From the sequence record KX452698: a stretch of 64,000 nucleotides of DNA, one strand, 5' to 3'. Below the pieces are notes generated by a model that worked only from the letters and a program-made list of their open reading frames with translations, did no database searches and was not told the DNA's origin. This DNA comes from Shigella phage KNP5. Below are positions 8,104 through 64,000 of the stretch, piece by piece (positions within the stretch are counted from its first letter, which is position 1; the number at the start of each line of letters is the position of its first letter). A program made the position numbers and the translations under genes.

Positions 8104-8291
8104 AAGTTTTCCATGGTAAAGGCAGTTTAGTTTTCTTTACTGTTAGTTCAACATCAGGATTCTTTTCTCTTAATTTAAGGCATTCCTCCCAAGCTCTGAT
8201 TTCACTAGTGAATACACAAAATTGCCATTACTAGTACCAACTAAACCGCTATTTACAATAACAATAGACCAAGTTTCATGATGCCACGCCA

Positions 8292-9517
<1,226 letters not shown>

Positions 9518-9520
9518 TTA

Positions 9521-10888: not shown

Positions 10889-10909
10889 AAAGTCCTCATG
10901 TTATGTCAG

Positions 10910-10946
10910 TAATACTACTATAACACAACACGAGGGACTTGTAAAC
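10910..10946 (-). promoter_or_regulatory. T4-type early promoter
   Basis: gtaaac at 10941-10946 (GTTTAC on the minus strand) upstream of alc. Confidence 0.45.
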
Positions 10947-10949
10947 AGC

Positions 10950-12537
<1,588 letters not shown>

Positions 12538-12564
12538 AATAAAATGGGCCTTGCGGCCCACTCC

Positions 12565-13734
12565 TTAAAAATATTTTTTAAAACTCATCATAACTTTATC
12601 ATCAACATCATTATCAATCTGTGCTACAAGGTAAGATGACAGTTCTACTTCTTGTGGCGCGGATTGAACATTATCAGAATTAAGATATTCACGAATCCAA
12701 GGATACGGATGTTTAACCGGAGCATCGGTAATTGGGCATGGAAGACCGCACTGTTTCATACGAGATACAGTTAAGTAATCAATAAAGCTCCACATGCTAT
12801 TTGTATTTAATCCAGGAACATCGCCATCTTTAAATAAATGAACTGCCCAGTCTTTTTCTTGACGGTTAACTTCCATGAAAATATCAACTGCTTCTTGTTC
12901 ACACTCTTGAGCAATTTTAACCCATTCATCCCCATCAGTGCCAAGTTGAAGTTGACGAATAATATATTGGGTGCCTTTAAGGTGAAGCTGCTCATCACGA
13001 GCAATGAACTTCATAATCTTGGCATTACCTTCCATGATTTCCATGTTTTTATGGAAGTTAAAGGTACATGCGAAAGATACATAAAAACGAATAGCTTCCA
13101 ATGCGTTGATTACATGAAGGCAAAGATAAAGAGATTTCATTAGTGCTCGTTTAGTACATTCAACAACTTTGCCTAGCTCTTCTTTACGAAATCCTTCTGA
13201 TAAAATTCCTTCATAATCTTCAACCGCATTCTGATATTCACGAGTCTTAACTAGAACATCATCGTAATAGCGACCAATGGACTCGGCACGTTTCATAATA
13301 GCTTTATCTAATACAATCTCATCAAACACTTTTGACGGATCAGTATAAAGATTTCGCATAATATGAGTGTATGAACGGCTGTGAATAGTTTCACTAAAAG
13401 TCCATGTAGCAACCCATGTATCAAGGCTTGGGTCTGAAATTAATGACATAAGTACAGCAGAAGGTGCACGACCCTGAATGCTATCTAGAAGTGATTGATA
13501 CTTCAGGTTATTAGTAAAAATATCTTGCTGATGCTGAGGAAGCTTATTAAATTGTGCAGCATCCATCATCAAGTTTACTTCTTCAGGACGCCAGAAAAAT
13601 GACAACTGCTTTTCAGTTAAATCTTCAAAAACTTTATGACGTTGAATATCATAACGCGCAATACCAAGACCTGAACCGAAGAACATGGGTTCTTTTAAAA
13701 CATCAACTGGATTTGTATTAAAAACTGTGCTCAT
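12565..13734 (-). CDS. nrdB: ribonucleotide reductase small subunit (uninterrupted)
   Basis: 389-aa continuous ORF; no intron or homing-endonuclease ORF present. Confidence 0.9.
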   Translation of the reverse strand: MSTVFNTNPVDVLKEPMFFGSGLGIARYDIQRHKVFEDLTEKQLSFFWRPEEVNLMMDAAQFNKLPQHQQDIFTNNLKYQSLLDSIQGRAPSAVLMSLISDPSLDTWVATWTFSETIHSRSYTHIMRNLYTDPSKVFDEIVLDKAIMKRAESIGRYYDDVLVKTREYQNAVEDYEGILSEGFRKEELGKVVECTKRALMKSLYLCLHVINALEAIRFYVSFACTFNFHKNMEIMEGNAKIMKFIARDEQLHLKGTQYIIRQLQLGTDGDEWVKIAQECEQEAVDIFMEVNRQEKDWAVHLFKDGDVPGLNTNSMWSFIDYLTVSRMKQCGLPCPITDAPVKHPYPWIREYLNSDNVQSAPQEVELSSYLVAQIDNDVDDKVMMSFKKYF

Positions 13735-13785
13735 AAATTTTCCGCTTAGTTAATAGATAGTGACTCGTCCGTGAGTCAAATTATA

Positions 13786-49145: not shown

Positions 49146-49646
49146 TTATCTCATTTCAATAAAATCTATAAGTTCAGCATGGGATTTACGGAACATTACT
49201 TGATGTCCGCCAATGATAACTTGGTCATCTGGCACTTCGTATACAGCAAGATAAAATCCTTTAGAAGATAATTCTTCACGCTCTTCTCGTGTGAACCATC
49301 TCATCATATCATATTCACTAGCGAAAGCAAAATGATAAAGAGCTATAAACCATCCTGGAATATAGTGATCTACGCCTACATAATCTTTCTTGAACTTAGT
49401 ATTAATTACTGTATTAGCGTTTTTAACTAATAGTTTATCTTCGTGTGGTAAAGGAATTCTTTTATTATTATCGCTATGATGCATAAAATTAGGTCTGTCA
49501 TAACCTACGTGTAATAACCACTCTTCGCTCCATGAATCTATTATACTCCTGTATGGCGTTATTTGAACACAAAGATTTCGACGTATTGTTATAGCATCTT
49601 CATAATTAAGAATACTAAAAGATGATTCAACACGATAAATTTTCAT
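49146..49646 (-). CDS. hypothetical protein (motB.2 position)
   Basis: ATG at 49646 preceded by GAGGA gives MKIYRVESSFSILNYEDA... (166 aa); early promoter just upstream. Confidence 0.5.
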   Translation of the reverse strand: MKIYRVESSFSILNYEDAITIRRNLCVQITPYRSIIDSWSEEWLLHVGYDRPNFMHHSDNNKRIPLPHEDKLLVKNANTVINTKFKKDYVGVDHYIPGWFIALYHFAFASEYDMMRWFTREEREELSSKGFYLAVYEVPDDQVIIGGHQVMFRKSHAELIDFIEMR

Positions 49647-49673
49647 TTTATTATCCTCAGTAGCTATGGTGTT

Positions 49674-49703
49674 ATAATACCACAACTAACCGAGGAAGTA
49701 AAC
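49674..49703 (-). promoter_or_regulatory. T4-type early promoter (GTTTAC-N18-TATTAT)
   Basis: Verified on the minus strand between dexA and the downstream ORF. Confidence 0.5.
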
Positions 49704-49709
49704 AACTTT

Positions 49710-50393
49710 TTATCGTTTTGTTGGAAGAGAAAGAGGATCGCACTCTTCCTCTGACGGAGCATCTTCAAGACCCATAGCATATCGCAAAGCATACTTCATC
49801 ATCAGGATGTCTTTCGCACAGTCATGAATAGAATCATGTGCAACGAATCCATCTAAAGTTCCCTTTGGAAGAGGACATGTAGTCATATCACGAACAAGCA
49901 GAAGTGCTTCAATTCTTGTACGGATATCACGCTGATTCCAGAATTTACATGGTTCTAACTTAAATGTATCAAGCTCATTCTCGGAAACGCCGTTAAGACG
50001 CTGAATATCACGAATGAGATCAACTAAAATTGGAAAATCAAACGACATTCCACGGCACCAGCCTTGAGATTTCCAAGGATCGATGTTATGTGCATTGATG
50101 TAATCATTAAATTTTGCAATACCATCGATAGTGCTTACATCTTCATCTGATGGTGCAATATTTTTTCGAGCTTCAGGAGACTGATTTTTCCACCATTCGA
50201 TAGTGCTTTTAGTAAAAAGACGATGTCCTTTTTGGCTTTTTAAATCAAATTTGATTTTAATGCCGCGTGAAACTAATTCATCAAACGTTTCAACTACTTC
50301 TGGATTAGGGTCAAAGGCAATGACAGCCAAATCAATAACAGCTGCCTTTTCACCGCTTCCCATTGTTTCAAAATCTATAATAAAATCAAACAT
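49710..50393 (-). CDS. dexA: exonuclease A (3'-5' DEDD-type)
   Basis: 227-aa ORF MFDFIIDFETMGSGEKAAVIDLAVIAF... at the T4 dexA position; same length as T4 DexA. Confidence 0.85.
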   Translation of the reverse strand: MFDFIIDFETMGSGEKAAVIDLAVIAFDPNPEVVETFDELVSRGIKIKFDLKSQKGHRLFTKSTIEWWKNQSPEARKNIAPSDEDVSTIDGIAKFNDYINAHNIDPWKSQGWCRGMSFDFPILVDLIRDIQRLNGVSENELDTFKLEPCKFWNQRDIRTRIEALLLVRDMTTCPLPKGTLDGFVAHDSIHDCAKDILMMKYALRYAMGLEDAPSEEECDPLSLPTKR

Positions 50394-50668
50394 TAAATTT
50401 TCCTCGCTAAATCGCGAATTTGACCTACAGTATAATCTTGGATATAAACTTTATTAATGGGCTCATCAATAAATTTTGCCATAGATTCAATATCTTTTTG
50501 TATCTCTTCAAGACTGTATACTATCTTTAAAGCTTTTTCGCGAATAGTAACATTATCAGGTCCTGAATTTTCTTGAATGACAGCTTTAACATTTGCCATA
50601 AGAGACTTAAACTGATGCAAACTTAATTCAATCATTAATAACCGCCTTATAAAGATGGCTAATTTCAC
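50393..50668 (-). CDS. hypothetical protein (dexA.1 position)
   Basis: 91-aa ORF; first of three similar-sized ORFs. Confidence 0.5.
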   Translation of the reverse strand: MKLAIFIRRLLMIELSLHQFKSLMANVKAVIQENSGPDNVTIREKALKIVYSLEEIQKDIESMAKFIDEPINKVYIQDYTVGQIRDLARKI

Positions 50669-50888
50669 CTAAAACATAATCACTGATTGTAACAGTTTTC
50701 ACTTCACCGCAAAAGAATTCTAACGCAATCAAATCTCGTTCAATTTCTTCCAATTGAAGCATTAACTTGCCTGATTCAATTTTCACGTTTTTGCGATTTT
50801 TACTATAAGCTATTTCATAAATTTCGCTCACTTTATCTTGAAGTAGATAAAACTGGTCTTTAGTTATTTCCACGAATAGCTTCCTCAA
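50628..50888 (-). CDS. hypothetical protein (dexA.2 position)
   Basis: 86-aa ORF. Confidence 0.5.
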   Translation of the reverse strand: MRKLFVEITKDQFYLLQDKVSEIYEIAYSKNRKNVKIESGKLMLQLEEIERDLIALEFFCGEVKTVTISDYVLGEISHLYKAVIND

Positions 50889-51120
50889 ATTTAATCAGCA
50901 GCTTACAGACACTTTCATCTAACGTAATTACCGTCTCTGTATTACTGTGATATGATTGTTTTTCAATTCGTTTAATTGCTAGTATAGTATCACTTATAAG
51001 ATTAAGCTTATAAAGGAGCTCAGCTCCTGTTACCATAACACTGAGGTTATCTTGCTTATCAGTGTGCTTCTTTATACTATCTATTAGACGATTTAAATAT
51101 TTTGAATTGATGTTAATCAT
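50860..51120 (-). CDS. hypothetical protein
   Basis: 86-aa ORF. Confidence 0.5.
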   Translation of the reverse strand: MININSKYLNRLIDSIKKHTDKQDNLSVMVTGAELLYKLNLISDTILAIKRIEKQSYHSNTETVITLDESVCKLLIKFEEAIRGNN

Positions 51121-51126
51121 ATATCC

Positions 51127-52446
51127 TCACACATAAAACACATCATAACGACCACGAGTGACACCAACATAAAGAAGCTGCTGAGCTAGTTCAGCATCTG
51201 CATAATGAATACAAGGCGTATAGATGAAAGCACGGTCTACAGACATGCCCTGAGCTTTATGGAATGTTGATGCAGGAAGTGCTTTCACTTTACTAAACTG
51301 TGATTTAGCATCCCAAAAATCACTCCACGGAGCTTTTCCACCTTTATTCCAATTTTTATACGTTTCTGCCGTTTTACCTAAAAATAAGTTAAACTTATAC
51401 AGCTCTTCATCAGATGAAATTATTTTAATCTTTTCACGATAATATTCATCATCGCCGTAAGTTTCTACCGTTAAATCCCAATGACGAATTAGATATTCTC
51501 CAGAAACACCACGAGCTTTAACAAATGTTGATGTATACTCTGCTTCTATAATACGAACTAATTGTCCGTTATTAAAAATAATTTCTGACACAGGCTTTCC
51601 ATCAATTTTATATGTTTTAATTAATGGTTCCTGCATTACAATAATTTCGCCAACGATAAAATCTTTATCAGTTTCAAAAATCTTTTTGCGAATAATGTTA
51701 TTTAACTTATCAACAGATTTATTCGTAAATGCCATGACGCGATTTTCAAACAAATCATCTAGTGATTTTACGATTGAAAAATAATTTACCATAAAATCGC
51801 GTAAAGCGGCATCACCGGTAAATCCACGTACTCCATGCCCGTCAACAACTTTATCATAAATCCACTTACCGTTGCGAACATCAGTAGCTACATCAATAAT
51901 AGGAGCATTACTGCGTTTAACTTCAGTGAGTTCACACTGATAAAAATCTTTATGTGTAAAGAACGGACTGATATAAGCGGTGTTTTCTCCTGGGTCAACA
52001 GGTCTAATTTGCTTATTATCGCCTATTCCAATTATAGTACACCACGGCGGGATAGTTGAAAGTAGAATTTTGAATAGCTTTCTATCATACATTGACACTT
52101 CGTCGCAGATTAATACTCTGCATTTAGCTAAATCCGGTACTTCTTTTTGTTCAAAAAGAACGTTTTCTTCATATGTTACTGGGTTAATTTTGAGAATACT
52201 GTGAATAGTACTCGCTTCTTTCCCTGACAGTTTTGAAAGAATCTTTTTAGCTGCATGAGTAGGAGCTGCTAAAATAATGCCAGTTTCGCCTGTAGATATT
52301 AAGGCTTCAATGATGAACTTAGTAAGAGTAGTCTTACCAGTACCAGCAGGTCCATTAATAGTTACATGATGTTTCTTTTCTTTAATAGCCCTCATAACGA
52401 TGTTAAAGGCATTTTTCTGGCCTTCGGTCAAATCATCAAATGTCAT
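51127..52446 (-). CDS. dda: Dda DNA helicase (SF1B)
   Basis: 439-aa ORF with Walker A GPAGTGKT; length equals T4 Dda. Confidence 0.9.
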   Translation of the reverse strand: MTFDDLTEGQKNAFNIVMRAIKEKKHHVTINGPAGTGKTTLTKFIIEALISTGETGIILAAPTHAAKKILSKLSGKEASTIHSILKINPVTYEENVLFEQKEVPDLAKCRVLICDEVSMYDRKLFKILLSTIPPWCTIIGIGDNKQIRPVDPGENTAYISPFFTHKDFYQCELTEVKRSNAPIIDVATDVRNGKWIYDKVVDGHGVRGFTGDAALRDFMVNYFSIVKSLDDLFENRVMAFTNKSVDKLNNIIRKKIFETDKDFIVGEIIVMQEPLIKTYKIDGKPVSEIIFNNGQLVRIIEAEYTSTFVKARGVSGEYLIRHWDLTVETYGDDEYYREKIKIISSDEELYKFNLFLGKTAETYKNWNKGGKAPWSDFWDAKSQFSKVKALPASTFHKAQGMSVDRAFIYTPCIHYADAELAQQLLYVGVTRGRYDVFYV

Positions 52447-52754
52447 CGTAAATTCCCTGCAATTGGTATACTAACAATACGCCCAGTATCTAAAATTCGC
52501 CGATATAATCTTTGTGTGTCTATATCAGGCTTAACATGTTTAACTTCTATTTTATTAAACCAAAACTTGCGTGGAGTTTCAACTAATCTAGGAATTCCCA
52601 TACCTAAAGCTAGTAGATACTGCTCTTTAAGAGTTGTAAAAACTTTATCAGCAATCTCCCTTTCAAAAAATACAGCAGGACGATGTTCATCAAGAGGAAC
52701 AGGCACTGCAAATCCATCTTTGTCTCTATACACTATCGCATATACATAAAACAT
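52443..52754 (-). CDS. hypothetical protein (dda.1 position)
   Basis: 103-aa ORF, ATGA-coupled to dda. Confidence 0.55.
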   Translation of the reverse strand: MFYVYAIVYRDKDGFAVPVPLDEHRPAVFFEREIADKVFTTLKEQYLLALGMGIPRLVETPRKFWFNKIEVKHVKPDIDTQRLYRRILDTGRIVSIPIAGNLR

Positions 52755-52755
52755 A

Positions 52756-53502
52756 TTATCCTCGGATAAGTTTAAAAATTGAACAATTTAGCGGGTATCC
52801 TCTTTTCAGTTTAAGTTTATCAATAAAAGACAAGTTTTGATACCGCTCTACACCTTGAATAATTTTATCACACATATCATATTGCATTTCTGCTTCTGAC
52901 AACTTTTTCACAGTTTTCCAATCAGAGCCTTTAAGAAGAACGTTCAATTTAACAACTTCAGTGCCTTCTGCTATACGAGAACCATCAATACGAGCTTTGA
53001 GTGCTACAATCGTTAGCTTAATATCAGAGGTTTGTTTTGATTTAGAAAGCTGAGAAATGTGCTCAATTCGGTTTTCACGTTTTTTCTGTATAGCTTTAAT
53101 TTGATTATAAGTCTTTTTGATTTTAGCCCATTTCTTTTCATTTAAATTTAGTTTATGAACTTTTTTCGCAGATGAACGACCAATTCGCAAAGCAAATAAA
53201 TCACGCTTTTCAATCAACTCTTCTAAAGTATAATCAGAACGAAATGTATTGTACTTTTTCTTTACTGCAATAACATTCCCTTTAATGTATCCAACGTTAT
53301 TATCAAAACGTTCTAATGATAATTTCTCTCCTTCAATACGATTATCAAAAGGTTCTCCCGAGTAAGCGCAAACTTTCTGATCTAAAATGTTCTTAATATA
53401 ATTGAAGTCTAAGTTAAAATCTTTAGAACGTCTTTTAGCGGATGCCTGAGTGTGCTCTAGACGACGTGTAATTTTACGAATTTGATTTTTAGACAGTTTC
53501 AT
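52756..53502 (-). CDS. srd: Srd-like basic protein
   Basis: 248-aa Lys/Arg-rich ORF at the T4 srd position between dda.1 and modA. Confidence 0.6.
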   Translation of the reverse strand: MKLSKNQIRKITRRLEHTQASAKRRSKDFNLDFNYIKNILDQKVCAYSGEPFDNRIEGEKLSLERFDNNVGYIKGNVIAVKKKYNTFRSDYTLEELIEKRDLFALRIGRSSAKKVHKLNLNEKKWAKIKKTYNQIKAIQKKRENRIEHISQLSKSKQTSDIKLTIVALKARIDGSRIAEGTEVVKLNVLLKGSDWKTVKKLSEAEMQYDMCDKIIQGVERYQNLSFIDKLKLKRGYPLNCSIFKLIRG

Positions 53503-53617
53503 ATTTTTCTCACAGACGGGTTAACTACTTATATTATAACATTTTCACTTCAGCTTGTAAACAACTTTATGAAAATGCTTTAAAACTTTCATGGTATAAT
53601 GAATCTAAGTCCTTCCA

Positions 53618-54220
53618 TTATAGATTAAATCCTTCAAAATCAAGAGTATAGATAGTGTATGTTGAATACTTTTTATACTCATATCTATCCGCAATTCTAA
53701 ATACACTTCCAGCAGGTATCATTACTTCTTGTTCATCTGAAACTAATTCCATATTACGATAGCGATGGCTATCCGGAAATTTAAAACTCGGGCTATATTC
53801 TTTACAACGTAAAGCTTTTATAGCATACTCCTGGAAATTAAACACCATAGGAGCTTTGAATTCAAAAATAACTTGCGTGTTGTATTCTAATCCAGAAGCA
53901 AAATGTAGAGCTATATTTTTATCATATGAAGCTGATACTACTTTATCAAATGTAATAATATCAATTCCTTGATTTAACACCTGCTTAGTCTCAACTGGAA
54001 CACCTCTCCAAAGAGGTTTATCGTTTGGAACCAAACGAGATTTGATTATTTCATTTAACCAAGAATGATCGTCTGGCTTATTAGTAATACAATGAATTAA
54101 AAGTTCAATTTCGGATAAATTAAATCCTTCAGAAAGTAATTCTTCACGAATAGAAGCACGCACCGATGCATCCATTGATTTGATTTTAAAATCTTTTAAT
54201 TGCATTGCTGAATATTTCAT
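53618..54220 (-). CDS. modA: ADP-ribosyltransferase (ModA/ModB family)
   Basis: 200-aa ORF with R-S-ExE signature: LWRG, SAS, EQEVMIP. modA versus modB assignment is by size only. Confidence 0.75.
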   Translation of the reverse strand: MKYSAMQLKDFKIKSMDASVRASIREELLSEGFNLSEIELLIHCITNKPDDHSWLNEIIKSRLVPNDKPLWRGVPVETKQVLNQGIDIITFDKVVSASYDKNIALHFASGLEYNTQVIFEFKAPMVFNFQEYAIKALRCKEYSPSFKFPDSHRYRNMELVSDEQEVMIPAGSVFRIADRYEYKKYSTYTIYTLDFEGFNL

Positions 54221-54852
54221 TCAACTACCTCAATATCATACACTTTAAATGTTCCAAATGAATCGTGTAATTTTTCTTTTGAAATAGAAGTTATTTTATA
54301 CTTTCCAATTGGAATCATCCATTCTTGTTCACGTACAATCATCATTAAGTTATCAGTACGTTCTGAATCTAATCCATCAGTATCTTCATATGTATACTTA
54401 AACTCAGTATTAGGAGAAGAAAGTATAATATCGCTGATATGGTCAGAATAATTAAAAGCTTTATCAGTTTTTAAGCGAAATATTATTTCAGTGGAATATT
54501 CAACATAAGAAAAACCACATGCTGTATGCAAACTAGTAGTAAATGAATCTACTCTGTTCGTTGAAAACACTTCTCCGACTTGTAAATCTTTAATGAGTTC
54601 TTTTGTCGATTTTGATATACCACGATATAGCTGATAAGGCGATTTAGTTAAATGCTTTTTAACGATTTTATTCAACTGCTGATGAAGAGCTTCATTCTTT
54701 TTGGCTTCCATACATTGCCAAAGAACTGACTGTTCAAAGTCAGTAAATTTTTCACAGACCTTTTTATACATATCATATTGAAAATCAACACTTTCAGCTT
54801 TTATAGATAACTGTTCAACATCTGCAAGATTAATAATCATGATAGCCTCCAT
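54217..54852 (-). CDS. modB: ADP-ribosyltransferase (ModA/ModB family)
   Basis: ORF with LYRG, STN/SFTTS, EQEWMIP motifs; internal ATG at 54840 would give 207 aa. Confidence 0.75.
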   Translation of the reverse strand: MEAIMIINLADVEQLSIKAESVDFQYDMYKKVCEKFTDFEQSVLWQCMEAKKNEALHQQLNKIVKKHLTKSPYQLYRGISKSTKELIKDLQVGEVFSTNRVDSFTTSLHTACGFSYVEYSTEIIFRLKTDKAFNYSDHISDIILSSPNTEFKYTYEDTDGLDSERTDNLMMIVREQEWMIPIGKYKITSISKEKLHDSFGTFKVYDIEVVE

Positions 54853-54907
54853 ATACTTCAGAAGCTATCATATCATTGTTAGGAAGGAAAGTAAACAACT
54901 TTTTGAA

Positions 54908-55090
54908 TTATTTTGCCCAGGGAGCCCAAGGCGGAGGGTCAAGATGGTATGAAGCTAGTTCTTCTAGAAGAGCATCTGGGGCTTCAATTCCATAATTCTG
55001 TAATACTATACGGTACTCTTTCTTATAATCACTAGAATCATTCTGGTTATTTGTAGAATGATTATCTTCTAACATCTCAAATAAATCCAT
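54908..55090 (-). CDS. hypothetical acidic protein
   Basis: 60-aa ORF. Confidence 0.45.
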   Translation of the reverse strand: MDLFEMLEDNHSTNNQNDSSDYKKEYRIVLQNYGIEAPDALLEELASYHLDPPPWAPWAK

Positions 55091-55098
55091 ATTAATTC

Positions 55099-55569
55099 CT
55101 AGCGATAAAAACCAAAATGACGATTAGCTTCAATAATCTTTCTTTCTTCTTCGGACATTCTCCAGCGTAGTCCAACATCAAAATGAGCCCAGACCATCTT
55201 AACAAATGCATTTATATCTTTAATATCTTCAATAATGAATGTTTTACTTTTATAAGGTTGACTAGCTAATTTAACTTTATCGTCTTCAAACAGGTCAAAA
55301 AGACCATATTCATGAGCTCTTTTATAGCCTTTAATAGTTAAAGCTTCAGAAGAAGAAAACGGTGAATCAGTATTCTGTAAAATATCTTCAGTATGCTTTA
55401 TAATTAGAATAACATTTTCTGGATATTTTCTTTCTTTTATATCTTTAATTAAAAAATCCGGATTTTCTGCTAAAGGAATAATTAATGAGCAATTTTTATT
55501 AAGTGTATTTACTGATTTACCTTCTTTAGACATAAATTCTATTGAATATCGTTTTGCTACTTCAATCAT
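55099..55569 (-). CDS. hypothetical protein
   Basis: 156-aa ORF. Confidence 0.5.
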
Positions 55570-55722
55570 GTGATTTCCTTTTGCCTACTAATGGACCGTC
55601 AGGAATTTTGTTTTCCTGGATATATTTCTCATTTTCTTCCATCATTTTACTGCCAATTTTAAGAAGCAAATCCAGTGCTTCGTTTGCTTTAGCTTTAGCC
55701 TCTTCTAATGCCATATCTCTGT

Positions 55723-55926
55723 TCACGATTTATCCCCATAGATGTCTCTCATCAATTTAAGCGCTGAGCGTTCTAATTTCTTTTCTTTCTCAGCACTAAT
55801 CATTGATTTCATCCATTCTTCTGATTCGTTCTGCATTTCTTTATTTGCTTGTTCAACCCAACCATCGTCAATATACATTGAGTTTGGTCTATTGAACCAT
55901 TCAAGCATTTTCTTCAGAACTTTCAT
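55723..55926 (-). CDS. hypothetical protein
   Basis: 67-aa ORF. Confidence 0.45.
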
Positions 55927-56398
55927 TTGTTTTACCTAAAACAACAGTAGGAGCATCATCAAATTCATGAATTTTTAGCAAATTTGGATGTAAACTATTC
56001 CACACAGAAGAAATAAAGTATGATAAAGCATCTTCACTCGCAATTATAAATTTATTTCCTTTATCTATTTTCCAACTATATACTGAATCATACGAATAGA
56101 AAGATAAAGGATTATCATTATATTGTTCTGCGCTAACATTAATGTATTCTGATTTAGTAAATGCTTCAATTGCTCTAAATGGAATATTTGGTACAGTTTC
56201 AATAATACCAATCTTTTTAAGTTTTATTTCAGCATCTTCTGGAACTGGCATTGAAACGAAATTTTCTACGAGATACATTGGGTCACAATAACCCTTATCA
56301 ATCATTACTGCTACGGTAATTGGAACGTCTTTAGCAAACGACAAACTATTACTGCTAATATACATTTCAAACAAAATCGCTTCCATAATTTTCCTCAA
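55901..56398 (-). CDS. hypothetical protein
   Basis: 165-aa ORF. Confidence 0.5.
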
Positions 56399-56733
56399 TC
56401 ACAAGATGTAGATGAACAACTAGAATCACAAGAACTTCCACATGAATCGCCCGTCCATACATGAACAGGAACATTAGTATCATATGAATCAGAACTAGAC
56501 TGTGTATTCTGCGTATTAGATGATGTAGGTGTTGACCAGCGCCAAGGATTTTTATAATATTCCTGGGCTTCTTCATAAGTCATAGTAACTGCTTCTACTG
56601 TTCCATCTCCCATATAAACATATTCAACTACAGTTAAAGGGAGGTAGTCATTTGAAATAGGAACTACACCTTCTCCGGGAGTTGTAGAGAAAAAATCCGT
56701 AAAGAAACTTTTAAACCAATTAAAGATAAACAT
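56395..56733 (-). CDS. hypothetical protein with Cys/Ser-rich C-terminal tail
   Basis: 112-aa ORF ending ...[20 protein letters not shown]. Confidence 0.5.
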
Positions 56734-56945
56734 TACAAAAAGCCTCTTTGAAATTCGACTCTTTGAAATCCACCCCAGTCAGTGTATCGCATTTCAGCAT
56801 TGAACTCGACTGAACCATCTGCATGCATCATGAATGAATGCGTGACGATATCACAATCCCAGCTTTTCATACCCCATTTATCAGAGATAGCTTTATCAAG
56901 AACCTTCTGGAGGTCTTCATTTGGTTTAATCCAACGATTTAACAT
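56733..56945 (-). CDS. hypothetical protein
   Basis: 70-aa ORF. Confidence 0.5.
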   Translation of the reverse strand: MLNRWIKPNEDLQKVLDKAISDKWGMKSWDCDIVTHSFMMHADGSVEFNAEMRYTDWGGFQRVEFQRGFL

Positions 56946-57011
56946 AGTGCTCTCCTTTATAAGATAATTCTATTATACCATACTTGTTTTGGAAAGTAAA
57001 CCGGTAAAATG

Positions 57012-57036
57012 AAAAAAAGGACTCCCGAAGGAGTCC
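57012..57036 (-). terminator. rho-independent terminator after soc
   Basis: Hairpin GGACTCC-CGAA-GGAGTCC followed on the minus strand by a T7 run; hairpin identical to the one at 3962-3979. Confidence 0.7.
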
Positions 57037-57044
57037 TTAAATTA

Positions 57045-57281
57045 TTAACCACCTATTTGTGTAGGCGTAAACATTGCAGCATTCTTAGTTTTCCAATCAG
57101 CTGCATCAGAAACTACGGTAGAATATGCTGCCTTTTCAGAAGGAAAGATCTGATAATGAGAATCTGCGATACGATGCTCGTTAGAATAAATTTCAAACGG
57201 AACAGAAACTTCCATACCTTTAACTTCTTTGCCTTCACCTGCTGGATGAGTAAAGGTCTTGATGTTAACGAAACCACCCAT
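57045..57281 (-). CDS. soc: small outer capsid protein Soc (diverged from T4)
   Basis: 78-aa ORF with AAGGAG Shine-Dalgarno; shares ..VNIKTF..HYQ.FPSEKAAYSTV.. with T4 Soc as recalled; late promoter upstream and terminator downstream. Confidence 0.7.
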   Translation of the reverse strand: MGGFVNIKTFTHPAGEGKEVKGMEVSVPFEIYSNEHRIADSHYQIFPSEKAAYSTVVSDAADWKTKNAAMFTPTQIGG

Positions 57282-57312
57282 AATAAACTCCTTTATTGTT
57301 TAATTACAGGTG

Positions 57313-57320
57313 TATTTATA
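57313..57320 (-). promoter_or_regulatory. late promoter TATAAATA (soc)
   Basis: Plus tatttata = TATAAATA on the minus strand, 32 nt upstream of the soc ATG. Confidence 0.65.
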
Positions 57321-57323
57321 TCA

Positions 57324-57842
57324 TCAATAACCTCGGTCTTGACGAGCGAAGTTTTCAGCATTTTTCAGATAATAAAGTTTAAAGATTTCTTCAGCAGTAA
57401 GACCGAGACCTTGGAACATGTTCAGAACGAAATGAAGAATATCAATCATTTCGAATTTAATTTCCAACTGGTCTTGTGGAGACAAATCAGTAATTAAAGT
57501 TTCACGGCGTTCACCATGCTGTGACTTCCAAGGTTTCCATACAGCAGATGCATCTTTTTCACCATTACTCATACCACCAAGAGAAGTCAGTAGTTCGCGG
57601 AATTCATCATCAATATAATCTTTCTGATTACGCAACCAATCAACAACTTCACCTGCAGTAGCCAAATCATCAGGATGACGGTTATATTCAGGTTTATCTT
57701 TAGCTAAACGAACCTGTAGAGATTTCTGCATATCAAGCATAACCTGCAGCGGGTCTTTTTCATCACCGAGAATATCCCAGTATTCATTTTGAGCTTTATC
57801 AGCGCCTTCAATCAGTTGTGAACATTCATTAAAGTATGCCAT
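57324..57842 (-). CDS. 56: dCTPase/dUTPase gp56
   Basis: ATG at 57842 (AAAGGA Shine-Dalgarno) gives MAYFNECSQLIEGADKAQNEYWDILGDEK... (172 aa; T4 gp56 171 aa). The track ORF starts 31 codons upstream. Confidence 0.8.
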   Translation of the reverse strand: MAYFNECSQLIEGADKAQNEYWDILGDEKDPLQVMLDMQKSLQVRLAKDKPEYNRHPDDLATAGEVVDWLRNQKDYIDDEFRELLTSLGGMSNGEKDASAVWKPWKSQHGERRETLITDLSPQDQLEIKFEMIDILHFVLNMFQGLGLTAEEIFKLYYLKNAENFARQDRGY

Positions 57843-57913
57843 TATTTTTCCTTTCAATTCATGGGTTAGTAGATTAATTATACAATAAATATATAAAGCA
57901 ATAAGGAGGACAT

Positions 57914-58114
57914 ATGGTACAAAAATTAATGGCACTTGTTAATGCCATAAAAGGTAATAAGAAACGTATAGCTTTTACTATTTCTGCTATGGTAGGAATT
58001 TTACTCTGGAATTTTGTTTTATCGCCAATTGCTATTGCTCATGGCGTTAATATTCCAGTAATTACTCTTGATACATTCGTAGATTTAGCATTTGCTTTAG
58101 TTGGGTTAATTTAA
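57914..58114 (+). CDS. small membrane protein on the opposite strand
   Basis: 66-aa ORF with strong AGGAGG Shine-Dalgarno 4 nt before the ATG; one hydrophobic helix; stop codon overlaps the convergent gene 61 stop. Confidence 0.5.
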   Translation: MVQKLMALVNAIKGNKKRIAFTISAMVGILLWNFVLSPIAIAHGVNIPVITLDTFVDLAFALVGLI

Positions 58115-59139
58115 ATCTTAGCATATTTAGATAGCCGCATTTTAGCCATCAACCCTTGAGCAATATTATTTTTCATATATTCCATAATTTGTTTAGGGGT
58201 TGCACCTTCCTTTCTAATCATATCATTAACATCTTTTGATTTCCAGGGGGATTTATCCCAAAACATAACCCTTTCTCCTGCATCAACCAATTTAGTCATT
58301 CGTTTAATAGTGTCAGGGTGACGAGGTTCATTATCTAAAACCCATACACGTCTATCTTTAAATGGAACAATTTCTAGGTCTAATTGACCACCCGTAATAG
58401 CTATACCATTTTCAATAAAAAGTGAATCTATAGGTCCTTCTAGAACATATACATCACCATCTTTGACTCGTTCGACTCCATATATTTTTGTTGCCTCAGG
58501 ATAAGCTTTGATGGTGATATATTTTTGAGGAGCATCTTTCTTTAGTGCACGTCCTTGAAAAGACTCAGCTTTTCCGTTAGCATTATAAATTGGAATAACA
58601 AGACGAGGCTCAGGTATTTCCTTTTTATATGTTCCTGGCGCTATACTATTAACTAATTTAGGCCATTCGGTTGTAAACCAAAGATATTTCCATTTATCCT
58701 TTGGAATACAACGAGCTTTTACATATTTTATAATTGGATGGTCTTCCGCCAATTTATCTAATCTGATGCATGACGGAAGAGATTTAATTATTTTCTTCTC
58801 AGGTTGTTTAGGAAGTTCTTTAGGTTTTTCTACTGGACGACTTTTACCTTTTTCTTTTCTTATTTCAAAGATATACTCACGATATAAATCAGGTTCAAAC
58901 TCCTTTAAATATATTCCGATTGGTGCATGATAGTTGCAGTTATAACAATGAATATTTCCTTCATTATTATCACCATAATACCATCCACGGGCTTTATTTT
59001 GGTCGGTTTTTGAATCTCCACAAACAGGACATCTAAACCGTAATTTAAAAGTTGAACTATTATTTACTTGTGCAAATTTAGGTAAATGAGCCAATGCACG
59101 GTATGCAAACTCATTATCAATCCAAGGTATTGATGACAT
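58111..59139 (-). CDS. 61: DNA primase gp61
   Basis: 342-aa ORF with N-terminal zinc-ribbon cysteines (CPVCGDS...CYNCNYH) and TOPRIM-like region; length equals T4 gp61. Confidence 0.9.
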   Translation of the reverse strand: MSSIPWIDNEFAYRALAHLPKFAQVNNSSTFKLRFRCPVCGDSKTDQNKARGWYYGDNNEGNIHCYNCNYHAPIGIYLKEFEPDLYREYIFEIRKEKGKSRPVEKPKELPKQPEKKIIKSLPSCIRLDKLAEDHPIIKYVKARCIPKDKWKYLWFTTEWPKLVNSIAPGTYKKEIPEPRLVIPIYNANGKAESFQGRALKKDAPQKYITIKAYPEATKIYGVERVKDGDVYVLEGPIDSLFIENGIAITGGQLDLEIVPFKDRRVWVLDNEPRHPDTIKRMTKLVDAGERVMFWDKSPWKSKDVNDMIRKEGATPKQIMEYMKNNIAQGLMAKMRLSKYAKI

Positions 59140-59141
59140 TT

Positions 59142-59306
59142 TTACTCTTCTTTTTCTTTAGATTCCTCTTTTTTCTTTTTAGGAATCTGTTCAGGACCTT
59201 TATTTACTACAGCGCCTGACGTTGTTCCAGTGGAGATATTTTCAGGATTACCACCTGAATCTCCAGCGACCATATCTTCTTTAATAAATTCTTTAAACGT
59301 TTTCAT
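59142..59306 (-). CDS. hypothetical protein (61.1 position, 54 aa)
   Basis: Hand-translated MKTFKEFIKEDMVAGDSGGNPENISTGTTSGAVVNKGPEQIPKKKKEESKEKEE. Below the track threshold. Confidence 0.45.
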   Translation of the reverse strand: MKTFKEFIKEDMVAGDSGGNPENISTGTTSGAVVNKGPEQIPKKKKEESKEKEE

Positions 59307-59318
59307 ATTAGCCTCTAA

Positions 59319-59612
59319 TTATTCACCTACCACTTCAGCGATGATATTTTTATTATTAAAGTTTTTATCGCAATACAGAACATAATTATACTGCATTACA
59401 CCACCAGACTTAAGCTGTTTTTGCACTTCAGCTTTCATTTCAGGACGGTCACGCTCAACGATATTCATAATATCTGCTTCAATTTGAGTTTCAACTTCAG
59501 TCTGATCTGCAGTCATAGACCATTCACACAAATCTTTGTCATAACCCGCCATAGCAGGCTGAGCAGCACAAGAAGATAAAGCAAAAATTGTAGCAAAGAT
59601 AAATTTTTTCAT
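59319..59612 (-). CDS. sp: Spackle periplasmic protein
   Basis: 97-aa ORF with signal peptide MKKFIFATIFALSSCAAQPAMA; matches T4 Sp in length and sequence as recalled. Confidence 0.8.
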   Translation of the reverse strand: MKKFIFATIFALSSCAAQPAMAGYDKDLCEWSMTADQTEVETQIEADIMNIVERDRPEMKAEVQKQLKSGGVMQYNYVLYCDKNFNNKNIIAEVVGE

Positions 59613-59638
59613 GATAATCTCCTCAGTAGTTTATGTTT

Positions 59639-59668
59639 ATAGTATCTCAATTTCCAATAAAAGTAAAC
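59639..59668 (-). promoter_or_regulatory. T4-type early promoter (GTTTAC-N18-TACTAT)
   Basis: Verified on the minus strand upstream of sp. Confidence 0.5.
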
Positions 59669-59670
59669 AA

Positions 59671-59970
59671 TTATTTTAAAACTTCTGCATAATCACATGT
59701 TACAAACTGTTTCTCTAACTTGACGATTTTACGAAAGTATCTTTTGCATTGGCGAATCTGTCGCTTCGTAGGGCGCACAGCAAACTTAATAAATTCTACT
59801 CGACCAGATGGAGGACTTTCTTCTGGTGGAATATCTAATACCAATTCCCACGTATCTGCAATAAGTGCTTTGAATTGAGTATTTTTCCTGACGTTATACG
59901 GTGTAGGTTTAAATAAAACAATATGCATATTATCCTCGGCAATCCACTTCGCATACTTTCTTGTCATCAA
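59671..59970 (-). CDS. hypothetical basic protein (61.2 position)
   Basis: 99-aa ORF. Confidence 0.5.
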   Translation of the reverse strand: MMTRKYAKWIAEDNMHIVLFKPTPYNVRKNTQFKALIADTWELVLDIPPEESPPSGRVEFIKFAVRPTKRQIRQCKRYFRKIVKLEKQFVTCDYAEVLK

Positions 59971-60112
59971 TGAAAGCTTTAACTAATGCTTTATTAACTT
60001 CAGCATATTGAGTAGTAGCCCATTGAACGTCATCTTTCATCATTGTGATTTCTTTAGTAAACATGCTTTCATTCTTAAACCACCCCATAAAAACTACCTT
60101 TACCAATTCCAT
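59930..60112 (-). CDS. dmd: Dmd, antitoxin against host RnlA/LsoA RNase toxins
   Basis: 60-aa ORF MELVKVVFMGWFKNESMFTKEITMMKDDVQWATTQYAEVNKALVKAFIDDKKVCEVDCRG; matches T4 Dmd as recalled. Confidence 0.85.
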   Translation of the reverse strand: MELVKVVFMGWFKNESMFTKEITMMKDDVQWATTQYAEVNKALVKAFIDDKKVCEVDCRG

Positions 60113-60170
60113 AACAATCTCCTCATTTAACCAACAAGACTACTATACCATAGTCTTGTCGGCTTGTAAA

Positions 60171-61598
60171 CTAAAATTTTAATTCATTTGCCAAAGCATC
60201 TAACTGAGCTCGAGCAGATTCGTTTCTTTGATAGCGATTCTGCTCAGCCTGAATCTGCTGTGAACCTGCTACTTCGTTCACTTCAGTTGGAGTAGAATCT
60301 TGTTCAATTTCTACCCATTTCTGATTTCCTTTTTGAACACCCATCAAAAACTTATTCCATTTATTCTTATCACCGTATCGTGATTTGATTTGCTTAATGA
60401 GTTGTTGTTCAGCAGCTGCTAGCTCCTCGGTTTCAATGACCGCAAGCATAAAATCAGCTGTTGCTGGAAGACCGGCAGATTCTGCAATATCGCTCATGTT
60501 AACATCAGAAGAATCCCAAGCTTGCTTACCAACCTGTGCTGCGGTCCAAAGAACAGTTTCGGTTTCAACAGCCAGAGCGCGCAATTCCTCTGCAATAGCT
60601 TTAACAGTCGTGTAACTATTTTCTGAATAAACTCTAATGCGGCAAGATTTACAAATACCCAGATAGTCAACAATAATGATTGTTGGAACAAAATTCTTCT
60701 TGAGCTTCAATTCGTTCAAAAGCGACCGAAATGTATTAGCGTCTGCTCCACCAGTAGGATATTGCTTAACGATTAAACGACCGAGAGTAGATTTCTCACG
60801 CCATTTTTCCATTTTTCCTTTATACTCAGCGTAAGAAATATGCCCGTCATCAATGTCATCAAGAGAAACATCAAGCATATTAGCGTCAATACGCTTAGCA
60901 CAAACTTCTTCTGCCATTTCCATGGAAATGTAAAGAACATTATGTCCGAGCTGCAAATAATCTGCTGCCAATGAACACAGACCTAATGACTTACCGACGT
61001 TAACACCAGCCATTAAAACGTTCAGTGTTCCAGTTTCAGCTCCGCCTTTAGTAATTTTATTTAGAATTTTGAGTTTAAATGGAACCTTACGAGCTTTATT
61101 CATATAAGATAGCCAACGTGCTTCGTAGTCATCCATCCAATCATGACCAACGTAGCTATCAAATGAAATTGATAATGCTTGGCGCATGATGTCAGGAATA
61201 GCACCTACATCTGGCATTTTCTTATTTCGTTTTTCCGGAGGAAGCTCAGCATTAGTTTGAATTTCAATTATTTTAGACGTAGCATTAAACATCGCCCTTT
61301 GCTGAACATATTTTTCTGTTTCTTTTACTAACCAGCTGTGGTCTTCTGGAGAATCGGCTAGTTTCGAAATAAGTGTTTTTACACCAGAATATTCTGTTTC
61401 AGTAAATGAACTATTTTCTAATGCAACATTTAACGCATTAATAGATGGAACGCTATGGTACTCATTAACATGAGATTTAATTAATTTGAATGTATTTTTA
61501 GCTGGACCACTTTCAAAATATTCTGAATCCATATATGGCCAAACTTTTGAAAAATAAGCTTGATCAAATATGAGATGAGAAAGAATAATTTCTACCAC
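60171..61598 (-). CDS. 41: replicative DNA helicase gp41 (DnaB-like)
   Basis: 475-aa ORF with Walker A GVNVGKS; length equals T4 gp41. Confidence 0.9.
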   Translation of the reverse strand: MVEIILSHLIFDQAYFSKVWPYMDSEYFESGPAKNTFKLIKSHVNEYHSVPSINALNVALENSSFTETEYSGVKTLISKLADSPEDHSWLVKETEKYVQQRAMFNATSKIIEIQTNAELPPEKRNKKMPDVGAIPDIMRQALSISFDSYVGHDWMDDYEARWLSYMNKARKVPFKLKILNKITKGGAETGTLNVLMAGVNVGKSLGLCSLAADYLQLGHNVLYISMEMAEEVCAKRIDANMLDVSLDDIDDGHISYAEYKGKMEKWREKSTLGRLIVKQYPTGGADANTFRSLLNELKLKKNFVPTIIIVDYLGICKSCRIRVYSENSYTTVKAIAEELRALAVETETVLWTAAQVGKQAWDSSDVNMSDIAESAGLPATADFMLAVIETEELAAAEQQLIKQIKSRYGDKNKWNKFLMGVQKGNQKWVEIEQDSTPTEVNEVAGSQQIQAEQNRYQRNESARAQLDALANELKF

Positions 61599-61607
61599 AC
61601 TTACTCC

Positions 61608-61970
61608 TTAAAAGAATTTAAATTTTTTCTTTGACCTTTTATTAAATGCATCTTGTAGTTGCATTGTAATACATTTTTCTACATGAGGAGCTAACTCAGC
61701 TTTTCTTTCTTGGTCAAGAACAGCAAAGTCCATTACGACTTTTCCATCAACCCAATCTAATTTTGTCACATACACAATGTGTGTAGAACCGTCTTCTAGT
61801 TTAATGACAATCTCCTGGATAACATTTTCCATGGCAGATTTAATTATCTTAAGAGATTCATTAAAAAGACGTTCTTTTCTTTCTTCTTCCCCCTCCGAAG
61901 AGGGGGATTCGTCGATAATTTCTAGATCTAAATCTAAATCATCTTTATTCATTAAATTCTTCCATATCAC
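61608..61970 (-). CDS. 40: gene 40-like protein (head vertex assembly), by position
   Basis: 120-aa acidic ORF between 41 and uvsX. Confidence 0.55.
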   Translation of the reverse strand: MIWKNLMNKDDLDLDLEIIDESPSSEGEEERKERLFNESLKIIKSAMENVIQEIVIKLEDGSTHIVYVTKLDWVDGKVVMDFAVLDQERKAELAPHVEKCITMQLQDAFNKRSKKKFKFF

Positions 61971-63126
61971 TTAACTGATCTAGGTCAGTTTCTAAATCAG
62001 CTGCTGATTTACTTTTACTTTCTGGAGATTTAAATTTTTCAACCTTTGAGTTAATCAATTCATCAACTTCAGCTTCAACAATTTCATTACTATCAATAGC
62101 ACCTAACTGATAAGCACGTTTAATAGCATCTCGGAATGGTTGATGCTTAAATAAAGGACCCCAGAATGTAGTGCAGTTGGTATCTTTTGCACGCCAAGAT
62201 TTTTCTTCGCGAATCATCTCACCGGTTTCTTCGTCAAGAAATTCACGAGCATACCAGCCATTTTTAGGTTTTACCACAAATCCTAATTCAAGAGCCATAT
62301 CTAACAATCCAGAATAAGGATCGATACCACCGTCAAATTTAACATCAATAAAGAATTTACTTTTTTCTTTAACGGTACGAGATTTTTCTACATTTAGAAC
62401 AAATTGATACCCCTGAAGATCAGAACCATCTTTAATCTGGCGCTTACCGATAATGAATACAGTATCAGCCGAATACATTACGCCTGTACCACCTGTCATC
62501 ACGGTTTTACTAAACATTTCAATTGTTTCAATTGTATGGTTAACCGCAACACATGGAATGTTTTTAATACTAAAATAAGGAGTAACAATACGGAATAATG
62601 ACTTCAGTGATTTAGCACGAGTCATATCTGCCACAGATTTTTCATTCAAGGCATCTTCCGTTTCTTTCTTAGAAGCCATATTACCGATTGAGTCGATGAA
62701 TACAATAACTTTTTCACCACGCTCAATAGCTTCAAGCTGATTCACCATATCAATTTTCAGCTGTTCAACTGACTGGATTGGTGTATGAATTACTCGTTCC
62801 GGGTCAACTCCCATGGATCGCAAATAAGCTGGAGTAATACCAAATTCGCTATCATAAAATAGACAAACCGCGTCAGGATATTTGTTCAAATACGCCGCAA
62901 CCATAGTCAAAGACATATTTGATTTAAAGTGTTTAGAAGGACCTGCAAAAATGGTTAAACCAGACTGCATACCACCATCAATCGCACCAGAAATAGCGAT
63001 ATTAAGCATTGGAATTTTTGTACGGATTACATCCTTTTCATTAAAGAATTTAGATGTAGTCAGTTCAGCAGTCATTTTAGAAGTGGAAGCTTTAATCAAA
63101 CGGGATTTTAAATCTGCAATAGACAT
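61945..63126 (-). CDS. uvsX: UvsX recombinase (RecA-like)
   Basis: 393-aa ORF with Walker A GPSKHFKS; C-terminal 2/3 near-identical to T4 UvsX as recalled. Confidence 0.9.
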   Translation of the reverse strand: MSIADLKSRLIKASTSKMTAELTTSKFFNEKDVIRTKIPMLNIAISGAIDGGMQSGLTIFAGPSKHFKSNMSLTMVAAYLNKYPDAVCLFYDSEFGITPAYLRSMGVDPERVIHTPIQSVEQLKIDMVNQLEAIERGEKVIVFIDSIGNMASKKETEDALNEKSVADMTRAKSLKSLFRIVTPYFSIKNIPCVAVNHTIETIEMFSKTVMTGGTGVMYSADTVFIIGKRQIKDGSDLQGYQFVLNVEKSRTVKEKSKFFIDVKFDGGIDPYSGLLDMALELGFVVKPKNGWYAREFLDEETGEMIREEKSWRAKDTNCTTFWGPLFKHQPFRDAIKRAYQLGAIDSNEIVEAEVDELINSKVEKFKSPESKSKSAADLETDLDQLSDMEEFNE

Positions 63127-63203
63127 TCATTTTTTCCATAGGCAACATTATATTTTCCTCACTGGTTAAAGATAGAGTAATTATAACACAATAAATTTAG
63201 GCA

Positions 63204-64000
63204 TTAATCAACTGCTATTGGATGAATAGCATTAAACTTATGAAACGCTTCTGATTTTTCTTTGCGTGAAACACACATGCGAAGAACCTTTAATGGCTCG
63301 TCTTCTTCACCCAACGATTTTCTCTTTTCAATATTCGATGTTTTCCAACGAGCTTGCTCTGGAAACTCTCTATTGATTTGCTCAAGAGCTCTATTATGTT
63401 TTGAATTACTACGAATTGAACTACATCCGCCAGGAGCCTGTGCTTTTCCAGACACAACCAGATATTTGAACAAGGCCAAATGCGGATAACCTTGATTAAT
63501 TAAATTGAGAAATGCATACATATCTTCGCATAAATCAATTTTTCCATACCCAATTTGTTCTGTTGTAAGTTTCCCGAGGTCATACCAAGTATTCGTGAAT
63601 CCATATGAATTTTCACGATAATTACCCCAAGATGAAGTAATTTTAAAAATAGGTAGACGAGCATGACCGTGATAATACCCGCAATCCATGGCATCTTCAA
63701 CGTATTGAATCAATTCATAGAACTGTTCACGAGTTAACTGATTAATTTTATCTACGCAGCGACGATCATCTTTCTTTCGCATTGAACTCATACGAATAGT
63801 AGTATCATCATCAATCATCCAGATTCGTTGACCTGCATACATATCAGTAATTGCTTTACGAGTACCAGCAATTCCATTAACATCATCAGGAATAGTTATA
63901 ATTTTAGCTCTAGACCCATAAGCGTCATAATAAGCTTTTTCTTCATGTTCACGTACTACAATATGAGGTTCATAATCAGTCGGAAACATATCAAGGGCAG
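63204..64000 (-). CDS. putative DNA-modifying glycosyltransferase (partial; N-terminus beyond window end)
   Basis: ORF at the position of T4 beta-gt but unlike T4 beta-gt as recalled; contains a DxD-like motif (WMIDDDTTI). Frame stays open upstream of the ATG at 63989 to the window end. Confidence 0.45.
   Translation of the reverse strand, partial: ALDMFPTDYEPHIVVREHEEKAYYDAYGSRAKIITIPDDVNGIAGTRKAITDMYAGQRIWMIDDDTTIRMSSMRKKDDRRCVDKINQLTREQFYELIQYVEDAMDCGYYHGHARLPIFKITSSWGNYRENSYGFTNTWYDLGKLTTEQIGYGKIDLCEDMYAFLNLINQGYPHLALFKYLVVSGKAQAPGGCSSIRSNSKHNRALEQINREFPEQARWKTSNIEKRKSLGEEDEPLKVLRMCVSRKEKSEAFHKFNAIHPIAVD

What the first reader, a model, noticed from the sequence alone, without database searches (positions are those of the whole stretch)
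63204..64000. Non-T4 glycosyltransferase at the beta-gt locus
The gene after uvsX is not the T4 beta-glucosyltransferase: its sequence (...GQRIWMIDDDTTIRMSSMRKKDDRR...ends SEAFHKFNAIHPIAVD) does not match T4 beta-gt as I recall it, and it has a DxD-like motif typical of GT-A fold enzymes. This suggests a different HMC-DNA sugar-modification chemistry, for example the beta-1,6-glucosyl-alpha-glucose transferase type, which would change restriction sensitivity. The gene is truncated by the window end.
Basis: partly seen in the sequence, partly recalled or inferred. Interest (0 to 1): 0.45.

Follow-up and report, generated by a model that had tools for sequence, protein, structure and literature searches.

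The report
Known T2/T6-type second-glucose DNA transferase
The gene next to uvsX is the well-known T2/T6-type enzyme that adds a second glucose to already glucosylated phage DNA; it is the usual gene at this position in T4-like coliphages, and T4's own beta-glucosyltransferase is the rare exception, so the finding is correct but ordinary.

Summary
A minus-strand reading frame runs from its stop at 63204-63206 to the window end. It contains both quoted peptides, and 264 of its 280 codons lie in the window.

It is not T4 beta-gt: BLASTP gives E = 3.4 and there is no PF09198 hit. The full-length protein, read from the nearest public record (phage KNP1, 100% identical DNA here), is:
- 99% identical to the T2 beta-glucosyl-HMC-alpha-glucosyltransferase (ba-gt);
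- 98% identical to the T6 ba-gt;
- 100% identical to the ime09 protein annotated with that name.

It matches Pfam PF20691 (TAGT) above the curated cut-off and phrog_842 at E = 5.6e-89. Gene order is the T2/T6 one: gene 42, ba-gt, uvsX, with no segA.

In the phage collection, 522 records carry this gene and only 29 carry T4-type beta-gt. Published papers already describe the gene, its fold, its position and its role, including a T6 ba-gt deletion that increases sensitivity to the Brig1 glycosylase.

How much of this phage's DNA carries the two-glucose unit (gentiobiose) cannot be read from sequence.

The parts
63204..64000 (-). 3' 797 nt of the 843-nt ba-gt (beta-glucosyl-HMC-alpha-glucosyltransferase, TAGT) gene. 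This covers codons 17-280 plus the TAA stop at 63204-63206. The true start would lie at about 64046, outside the window.
   Evidence: The protein is 99% identical to T2 ba-gt, 98% to T6 ba-gt and 100% to the ime09 protein. PF20691 scores 38.8 bits and phrog_842 E = 5.6e-89.
63804..63812 (-). GATGATGAT encoding D79-D80-D81. This is the DxD-type acidic motif. It sits immediately after a predicted beta-strand (RIWMI), which is the usual position of the metal- and nucleotide-sugar-binding motif in GT-A enzymes.
   Evidence: The motif is invariant in 10 homologues down to 34% identity. The model has a strand at fragment residues 58-62 followed by a loop at 63-65.
63127..63203 (-). 77-nt spacer between ba-gt and uvsX. 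No segA homing-endonuclease gene is present here, unlike T4.
   Evidence: T4 has segA between uvsX and b-gt. T2, T6 and ime09 have the same short spacer. tblastn with T4 SegA finds nothing in the window.
61945..63126 (-). uvsX, the RecA-like recombinase and downstream neighbour of ba-gt; a landmark for the locus.
   Evidence: 90% identical to T4 UvsX over 391 aa.
57327..57842 (-). Gene 56 (dCTPase/dUTPase), part of the pathway that replaces cytosine with hydroxymethylcytosine (HMC), the base that is later glucosylated. Included as context.
   Evidence: tblastn with T4 gp56: 73% identity over 172 aa, E = 4e-84.

Best explanation
The gene is the T2/T6-type beta-glucosyl-HMC-alpha-glucosyltransferase (ba-gt; Pfam TAGT, PF20691).

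It is a GT-A-fold glycosyltransferase with a DDD (DxD-type) motif. It most likely uses host UDP-glucose to add a second glucose in beta-1,6 linkage to glucose that the phage alpha-glucosyltransferase has already attached to 5-hydroxymethylcytosine (HMC) in DNA. The product is gentiobiosyl-HMC.

The phage therefore has T2/T6-type DNA (unglucosylated HMC, alpha-glucosyl-HMC and gentiobiosyl-HMC) and no beta-monoglucosyl-HMC as in T4.

Shown here: gene identity, locus, fold and conserved motif. Inferred from near-identical, experimentally studied orthologues: donor, acceptor, linkage and protective role. Not determinable from sequence: what fraction of cytosines carries the disaccharide.
For: - Sequence identity: the full-length protein read from the 100%-identical KNP1 record is 99% identical to T2 ba-gt, 98% to T6 ba-gt and 100% to the ime09 protein annotated with that name.
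- Family matches: PF20691 (TAGT) at 38.8 bits against a cut-off of 27.5, covering profile positions 2-205 of 205; phrog_842 'beta-glucosyl-HMC-alpha-glucosyltransferase' at E = 5.6e-89.
- Synteny: the order gene 42, ba-gt, uvsX matches T2, T6 and ime09. The ba-gt ATG overlaps the gene 42 stop.
- Motif: DDD is invariant across homologues of 34-99% identity.
- Partner enzymes in the closest relative KNP1: alpha-gt (90.5% identical to T4) and gp42 (97.6%). The gp56 dCTPase is in the window itself.
- Literature: in T2 and T6 this enzyme adds glucose to alpha-glucosylated HMC to give the gentiobiosyl base, and it has a GT-A fold by AF3 model (PMC13216743). Tequatrovirus phages with alpha-GT plus TAGT and no beta-GT contain alpha-glucosyl- and alpha-gentiobiosyl-HMC by HPLC/MS (PMC13390438). 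Deleting ba-gt in T6 makes the phage more sensitive to the Brig1 glycosylase and its DNA degradable by it (PMC11078745).
Against: Nothing found here argues against the identification. The limits are these.

- The first 16 codons, gene 42 and alpha-gt lie outside the window. They were read from a near-identical relative (99.88% over 14.6 kb), not from this genome.
- No biochemical data exist for this particular phage.
- T2 and T6 proteins are 98-99% identical, yet the phages are reported to differ greatly in gentiobiosyl content (5% against 72%). Presence of the gene therefore does not predict the extent of modification.
Confidence: 0.95

Rival explanations
1. The gene is a diverged T4-type beta-glucosyltransferase (GT-B fold, PF09198) that puts a single beta-linked glucose on HMC.
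For: Only its position: T4 b-gt occupies the syntenic slot between gene 42 and uvsX.
Against: BLASTP against T4 beta-gt gives E = 3.4. PF09198 hits T4 beta-gt at 325 bits but not this protein. The model matches GT-A enzymes, not GT-B. The lengths differ: 280 aa against 351 aa.
Confidence: 0.005
2. The gene is a TAGT-family enzyme with a different sugar or acceptor, for example arabinose or direct action on HMC, so that the phage carries a new modification.
For: The TAGT family is diverse. Distant members occur in phages that have no alpha-GT or beta-GT (PMC13216743).
Against: The protein differs from the T2 enzyme at only four of 280 residues. The nearest relative carries a T4-like alpha-gt. 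Tequatrovirus phages with this gene set contain gentiobiosyl-HMC by HPLC/MS.
Confidence: 0.02
3. The gene is the ba-gt orthologue but acts only weakly in this phage, as reported for T2 (about 5% gentiobiosyl). The DNA would then be essentially alpha-glucosyl-HMC plus free HMC, and the gene would barely change sensitivity to host defences.
For: T2 and T6 proteins are 98-99% identical, yet the reported disaccharide content is 5% against 72%. The window protein is marginally closer to T2 (99%) than to T6 (98%).
Against: All ten Durham Tequatrovirus phages with this gene set had substantial gentiobiosyl-HMC, about 40% to two-thirds of cytosines (PMC13390438). The reading frame, the DDD motif and the other invariant residues are intact in the window.
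Confidence: 0.25

Closest known systems
Phage T2 beta-glucosyl-HMC-alpha-glucosyltransferase (ba-gt; BBC14657.1 in LC348380)
   Same: 99% identical over 280 aa. Same length, same position between gene 42 and uvsX, and same overlap of its start with the gene 42 stop.
   Different: Four substitutions: R11H, K92R, I101V and P251S. None falls in an invariant column of the family alignment.
Phage T6 ba-gt / TAGT (YP_010067197.1 in NC_054907; AXN58083.1 in MH550421), the enzyme deleted in the Brig1 study and modelled as GT-A in PMC13216743
   Same: 98% identical, with the same locus, Pfam family and fold.
   Different: The window gene lacks both peculiarities of the public T6 records: the amber codon 10 of MH550421 and the one-codon deletion in DDD of NC_054907.
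T4 beta-glucosyltransferase (NP_049658.1; PF09198, GT-B fold)
   Same: Occupies the syntenic slot and also glucosylates HMC DNA.
   Different: Unrelated sequence and fold. It acts on bare HMC to make beta-monoglucosyl-HMC, is accompanied by segA, and is found in only 29 phage records.
Cellular GT2-type GT-A glycosyltransferases (for example WrtF 9omh, AvpGT 9jma, dolichyl-phosphate mannose synthase 5mlz)
   Different: Only 9-14% sequence identity, different acceptors (lipid or glycan rather than glucosylated DNA), and an extra C-terminal region in the phage enzyme.

Membership tests
T2/T6 ba-gt (beta-glucosyl-HMC-alpha-glucosyltransferase) = Pfam PF20691 TAGT | Sequence match to the family profile above the curated threshold | tested here: met
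   PF20691 scores 38.8 bits against a cut-off of 27.5, covering profile positions 2-205 of 205. The window-only fragment scores 35.4 bits. phrog_842 gives E = 5.6e-89.
T2/T6 ba-gt (beta-glucosyl-HMC-alpha-glucosyltransferase) = Pfam PF20691 TAGT | Orthology to the T2 and T6 enzymes (near-identity over the full length) | tested here: met
   99% identical to T2 and 98% to T6 over 280 aa.
T2/T6 ba-gt (beta-glucosyl-HMC-alpha-glucosyltransferase) = Pfam PF20691 TAGT | Genomic position between gene 42 (dCMP hydroxymethylase) and uvsX | tested here: met
   uvsX is adjacent in the window. Gene 42 lies immediately upstream in the 100%-identical KNP1 record and in T2, T6 and ime09.
T2/T6 ba-gt (beta-glucosyl-HMC-alpha-glucosyltransferase) = Pfam PF20691 TAGT | GT-A fold with a conserved DxD-type acidic motif | tested here: met
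T2/T6 ba-gt (beta-glucosyl-HMC-alpha-glucosyltransferase) = Pfam PF20691 TAGT | Co-occurrence with an alpha-glucosyltransferase that makes the acceptor (alpha-glucosyl-HMC) | tested here: inconclusive
   alpha-gt would lie about 12 kb beyond the window end, and none is present in the window. The closest relative KNP1 encodes one that is 90.5% identical to T4 alpha-gt, as does ime09.
T2/T6 ba-gt (beta-glucosyl-HMC-alpha-glucosyltransferase) = Pfam PF20691 TAGT | Catalysis: UDP-glucose-dependent beta-1,6 glucosylation of alpha-glucosyl-HMC in DNA | not testable with these tools
   Inferred from the literature on T2 and T6 and on Tequatrovirus phages with the same gene set (PMC13216743, PMC13390438, PMC11078745).
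T4 beta-glucosyltransferase (PF09198, GT-B) | Sequence similarity to T4 beta-gt or a PF09198 match | tested here: not met
   BLASTP E = 3.4. There is no PF09198 hit, while T4 beta-gt scores 325 bits. tblastn with T4 beta-gt finds nothing in the window.
T4 beta-glucosyltransferase (PF09198, GT-B) | GT-B two-domain fold | tested here: not met
RB69-type arabinosyltransferases | Homology to the RB69 or Mosigvirus arabinosyltransferase genes and their 5-hydroxycytosine pathway | not tested
   Not pursued, because 99% identity to the T2 glucosyltransferase makes it moot.

The most novel reading that the evidence does not exclude
The few residue differences among the T2-type, T6-type and this allele of ba-gt, or differences in its expression, might set how much of the DNA is diglucosylated (5% in T2 against 72% in T6). 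This phage's allele could then help map that determinant. The disaccharide fraction matters because gentiobiosyl-HMC resists defence glycosylases such as Brig1.
Probability: 0.1. Interest if true: 0.3.

Novelty: already known. Interest (0 to 1): 0.06.

Why it matters
It tells an annotator that this phage should carry T2/T6-type DNA (HMC, alpha-glucosyl-HMC and gentiobiosyl-HMC) rather than T4-type DNA. That bears on its sensitivity to modification-dependent defences:

- In the T6 study, gentiobiosyl-HMC DNA resisted the Brig1 glycosylase.
- GmrSD-type enzymes still target gentiobiosyl-HMC.

The result opens no new question. It corrects a bias that comes from using T4 as the reference: at this locus T4 is the unusual phage.

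Tried and rejected
- Sequence search of solved structures with the full-length protein found nothing meaningful (best E = 0.76, an unrelated RNA-binding protein). No close relative has an experimental structure, so the fold was tested with a model instead.
- The consensus promoter and terminator scan of 62900-64000 found fewer sites than in shuffled sequence (3 against a mean of 4.7, and no terminators). I draw no regulatory conclusion from it.
- A weak Pfam RNA_binding hit in the C-terminal part (E = 0.13-0.15, 13 bits against a cut-off of 26.9) was dismissed as chance.
- The first attempt to translate the T6 (MH550421) gene from the T2-equivalent start failed on an internal stop. This led to the side observation on the T6 records.
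- One word-indexed homologue search returned only 11 proteins.
- The literature library did not yield the original cloning paper for the T2/T6 genes. I recall it as Winkler and Rueger, Nucleic Acids Res 1993; that citation rests on my own memory only.

Full report
**Observation**

The plus strand of 63204-64000 is the antisense of a gene. On the minus strand a frame is open from the window end down to a TAA stop at 63204-63206.

The ORF tool lists 63204-63989 (261 aa) only because it starts at the first ATG inside the window. That ATG is an internal Met20. The downstream neighbour on the same strand is uvsX (61945-63126; 90% identical to T4 UvsX), after a 77-nt spacer.

**Source and full length**

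Megablast of 63100-64000 against the phage collection finds 522 records, 473 of them covering at least 80% of the query. Nearly all are Tequatrovirus phages of Escherichia, Shigella, Yersinia, Salmonella and Citrobacter.

- The best match is Escherichia phage KNP1 (KX452694): 100% identical over this stretch, and 99.88% over window 49354-64000.
- In KNP1 the CDS is 843 nt (280 aa). Its ATG overlaps the stop of gene 42, the dCMP hydroxymethylase.
- Mapped onto the window, the gene spans 63204-64046. So 264 of 280 codons are in the window and 16 N-terminal codons are missing.

**Identity**

The full-length protein is 99% identical to the T2 protein annotated beta-glucosyl-HMC-alpha-glucosyl-transferase (LC348380). 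It is 98% identical to the T6 protein (MH550421, NC_054907) and 100% identical to the ime09 protein.

- It has no detectable similarity to T4 beta-gt (BLASTP E = 3.4).
- Pfam gives PF20691 (TET-associated glycosyltransferase, TAGT) at 38.8 bits against a cut-off of 27.5, over the whole profile. T4 beta-gt instead hits PF09198 at 325 bits.
- PHROGs gives phrog_842, 'beta-glucosyl-HMC-alpha-glucosyltransferase', at E = 5.6e-89.
- Gene order (43, imm.1, imm, 42, ba-gt, uvsX, 40, 41) is the same as in T2, T6 and ime09. T4 has b-gt plus the segA homing endonuclease in that slot.
- tblastn with T4 beta-gt, SegA, SegF and Dam finds nothing in the window.

**Fold and motif**

One homologue search returned 11 proteins, with 33-99% BLASTP identity to the query. 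In the alignment of the ten full-length or nearly full-length ones, whose identity to the query runs down to 34%, D79-D80-D81 (window 63804-63812) is invariant. So are an E-D pair (E174-D175), the NSxGFTN segment and a GG.S..R segment.

**Mechanism**

This part is inferred from near-identical, studied orthologues.

- In T2 and T6 the enzyme adds a glucosyl group to already alpha-glucosylated HMC, giving the gentiobiosyl (beta-1,6-glucosyl-alpha-glucosyl) base (PMC13216743; PMC6024577).
- Tequatrovirus phages that encode alpha-GT plus TAGT and lack beta-GT contain HMC, alpha-glucosyl-HMC and alpha-gentiobiosyl-HMC by HPLC/MS, and no beta-glucosyl-HMC. [quoted passage not shown]
- Deleting ba-gt in T6 makes the phage more susceptible to the Brig1 glycosylase and makes its DNA degradable by it (PMC11078745).
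- The partner enzymes are present: gp56 dCTPase in the window (57327-57842), and gp42 and alpha-gt in the closest relative KNP1 (97.6% and 90.5% identical to T4).

Not shown here: the donor, the linkage and the fraction of cytosines modified in this particular phage. T2 and T6 proteins are 98-99% identical, yet the phages are reported to differ in gentiobiosyl content (5% against 72%). The extent of modification therefore cannot be read from the protein sequence.

**Comparison with what is known, and novelty**

The gene, its fold, its syntenic relation to T4 b-gt and its distribution are all published. An AF3 model of the T6 enzyme placed it in the GT-A superfamily as a sister group to GT2. 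[quoted passage not shown]

My own counts agree: 522 phage records carry this gene and 29 carry T4-type b-gt, most of those being T4 itself. The finding is correct and its interpretation is supported, but it is already known and ordinary.

**Side observations**

The two public T6 records each carry a different lesion in this gene.

- MH550421 has an amber codon 10 and is annotated from Met20.
- NC_054907 has a 3-nt deletion that turns the invariant DDD into DD.

The window also lacks dam, segA and segF, and its gp56 is only 73% identical to T4 gp56.

Noticed in passing
L004 (MH550421, T6) 3951-3953 minus strand; L010 (NC_054907, T6) about 1140-1145; equivalent to window 63804-63812 and to codon 10, which lies beyond the window end: The two public T6 genome records each carry a different, potentially damaging change in ba-gt. 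MH550421 has TAG (amber) at codon 10 where the other T6 record has CAG and the window's relatives CAA, so its CDS is annotated from Met20 and lacks the first beta-strand. NC_054907/AP018814 has an in-frame 3-nt deletion in GATGATGAT that turns the family-invariant DDD into DD. T2, KNP1, ime09 and the window have neither change. T6 is the classical high-gentiobiosyl phage, so these are either drift in laboratory stocks or sequencing errors. NC_054907's protein (YP_010067197.1) is the TAGT reference used in PMC13216743.
   Followed up: partly
window 63127-63203, compared with L003 (T4) 4563-5400: T4 has the segA homing endonuclease between uvsX and b-gt. The window, like T2, T6 and ime09, has only a 77-nt spacer. 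tblastn with SegA and SegF finds nothing anywhere in the window.
   Followed up: yes
window 57327-58114: The gp56 dCTPase is only 73% identical to T4 gp56, whereas the neighbouring primase gp61 is 98% identical. No dam methyltransferase gene lies between genes 56 and 61 as it does in T4; instead a short plus-strand ORF (57914-58114, 66 aa, hydrophobic) sits there.
   Followed up: no
window 49354-64000, compared with KX452694 (KNP1) 1-14654: The window continues to the left of the first base of the KNP1 record and differs from that record at about 0.12% of positions. It therefore comes from a very close relative, or from a differently permuted assembly, not from that record itself. KNP1 is an unannotated 'UNVERIFIED' GenBank entry.
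   Followed up: partly
H41, H42 (KM607002 RB55, KM607003 RB59): In these records a gene 100% identical to T4 b-gt is labelled 'beta-glucosyl-HMC-alpha-glucosyl-transferase', which is a mis-annotation. Conversely, some true ba-gt genes are labelled 'beta-glucosyltransferase' (for example Shigella phage SH7, KX828711). Product names at this locus are unreliable.
   Followed up: no
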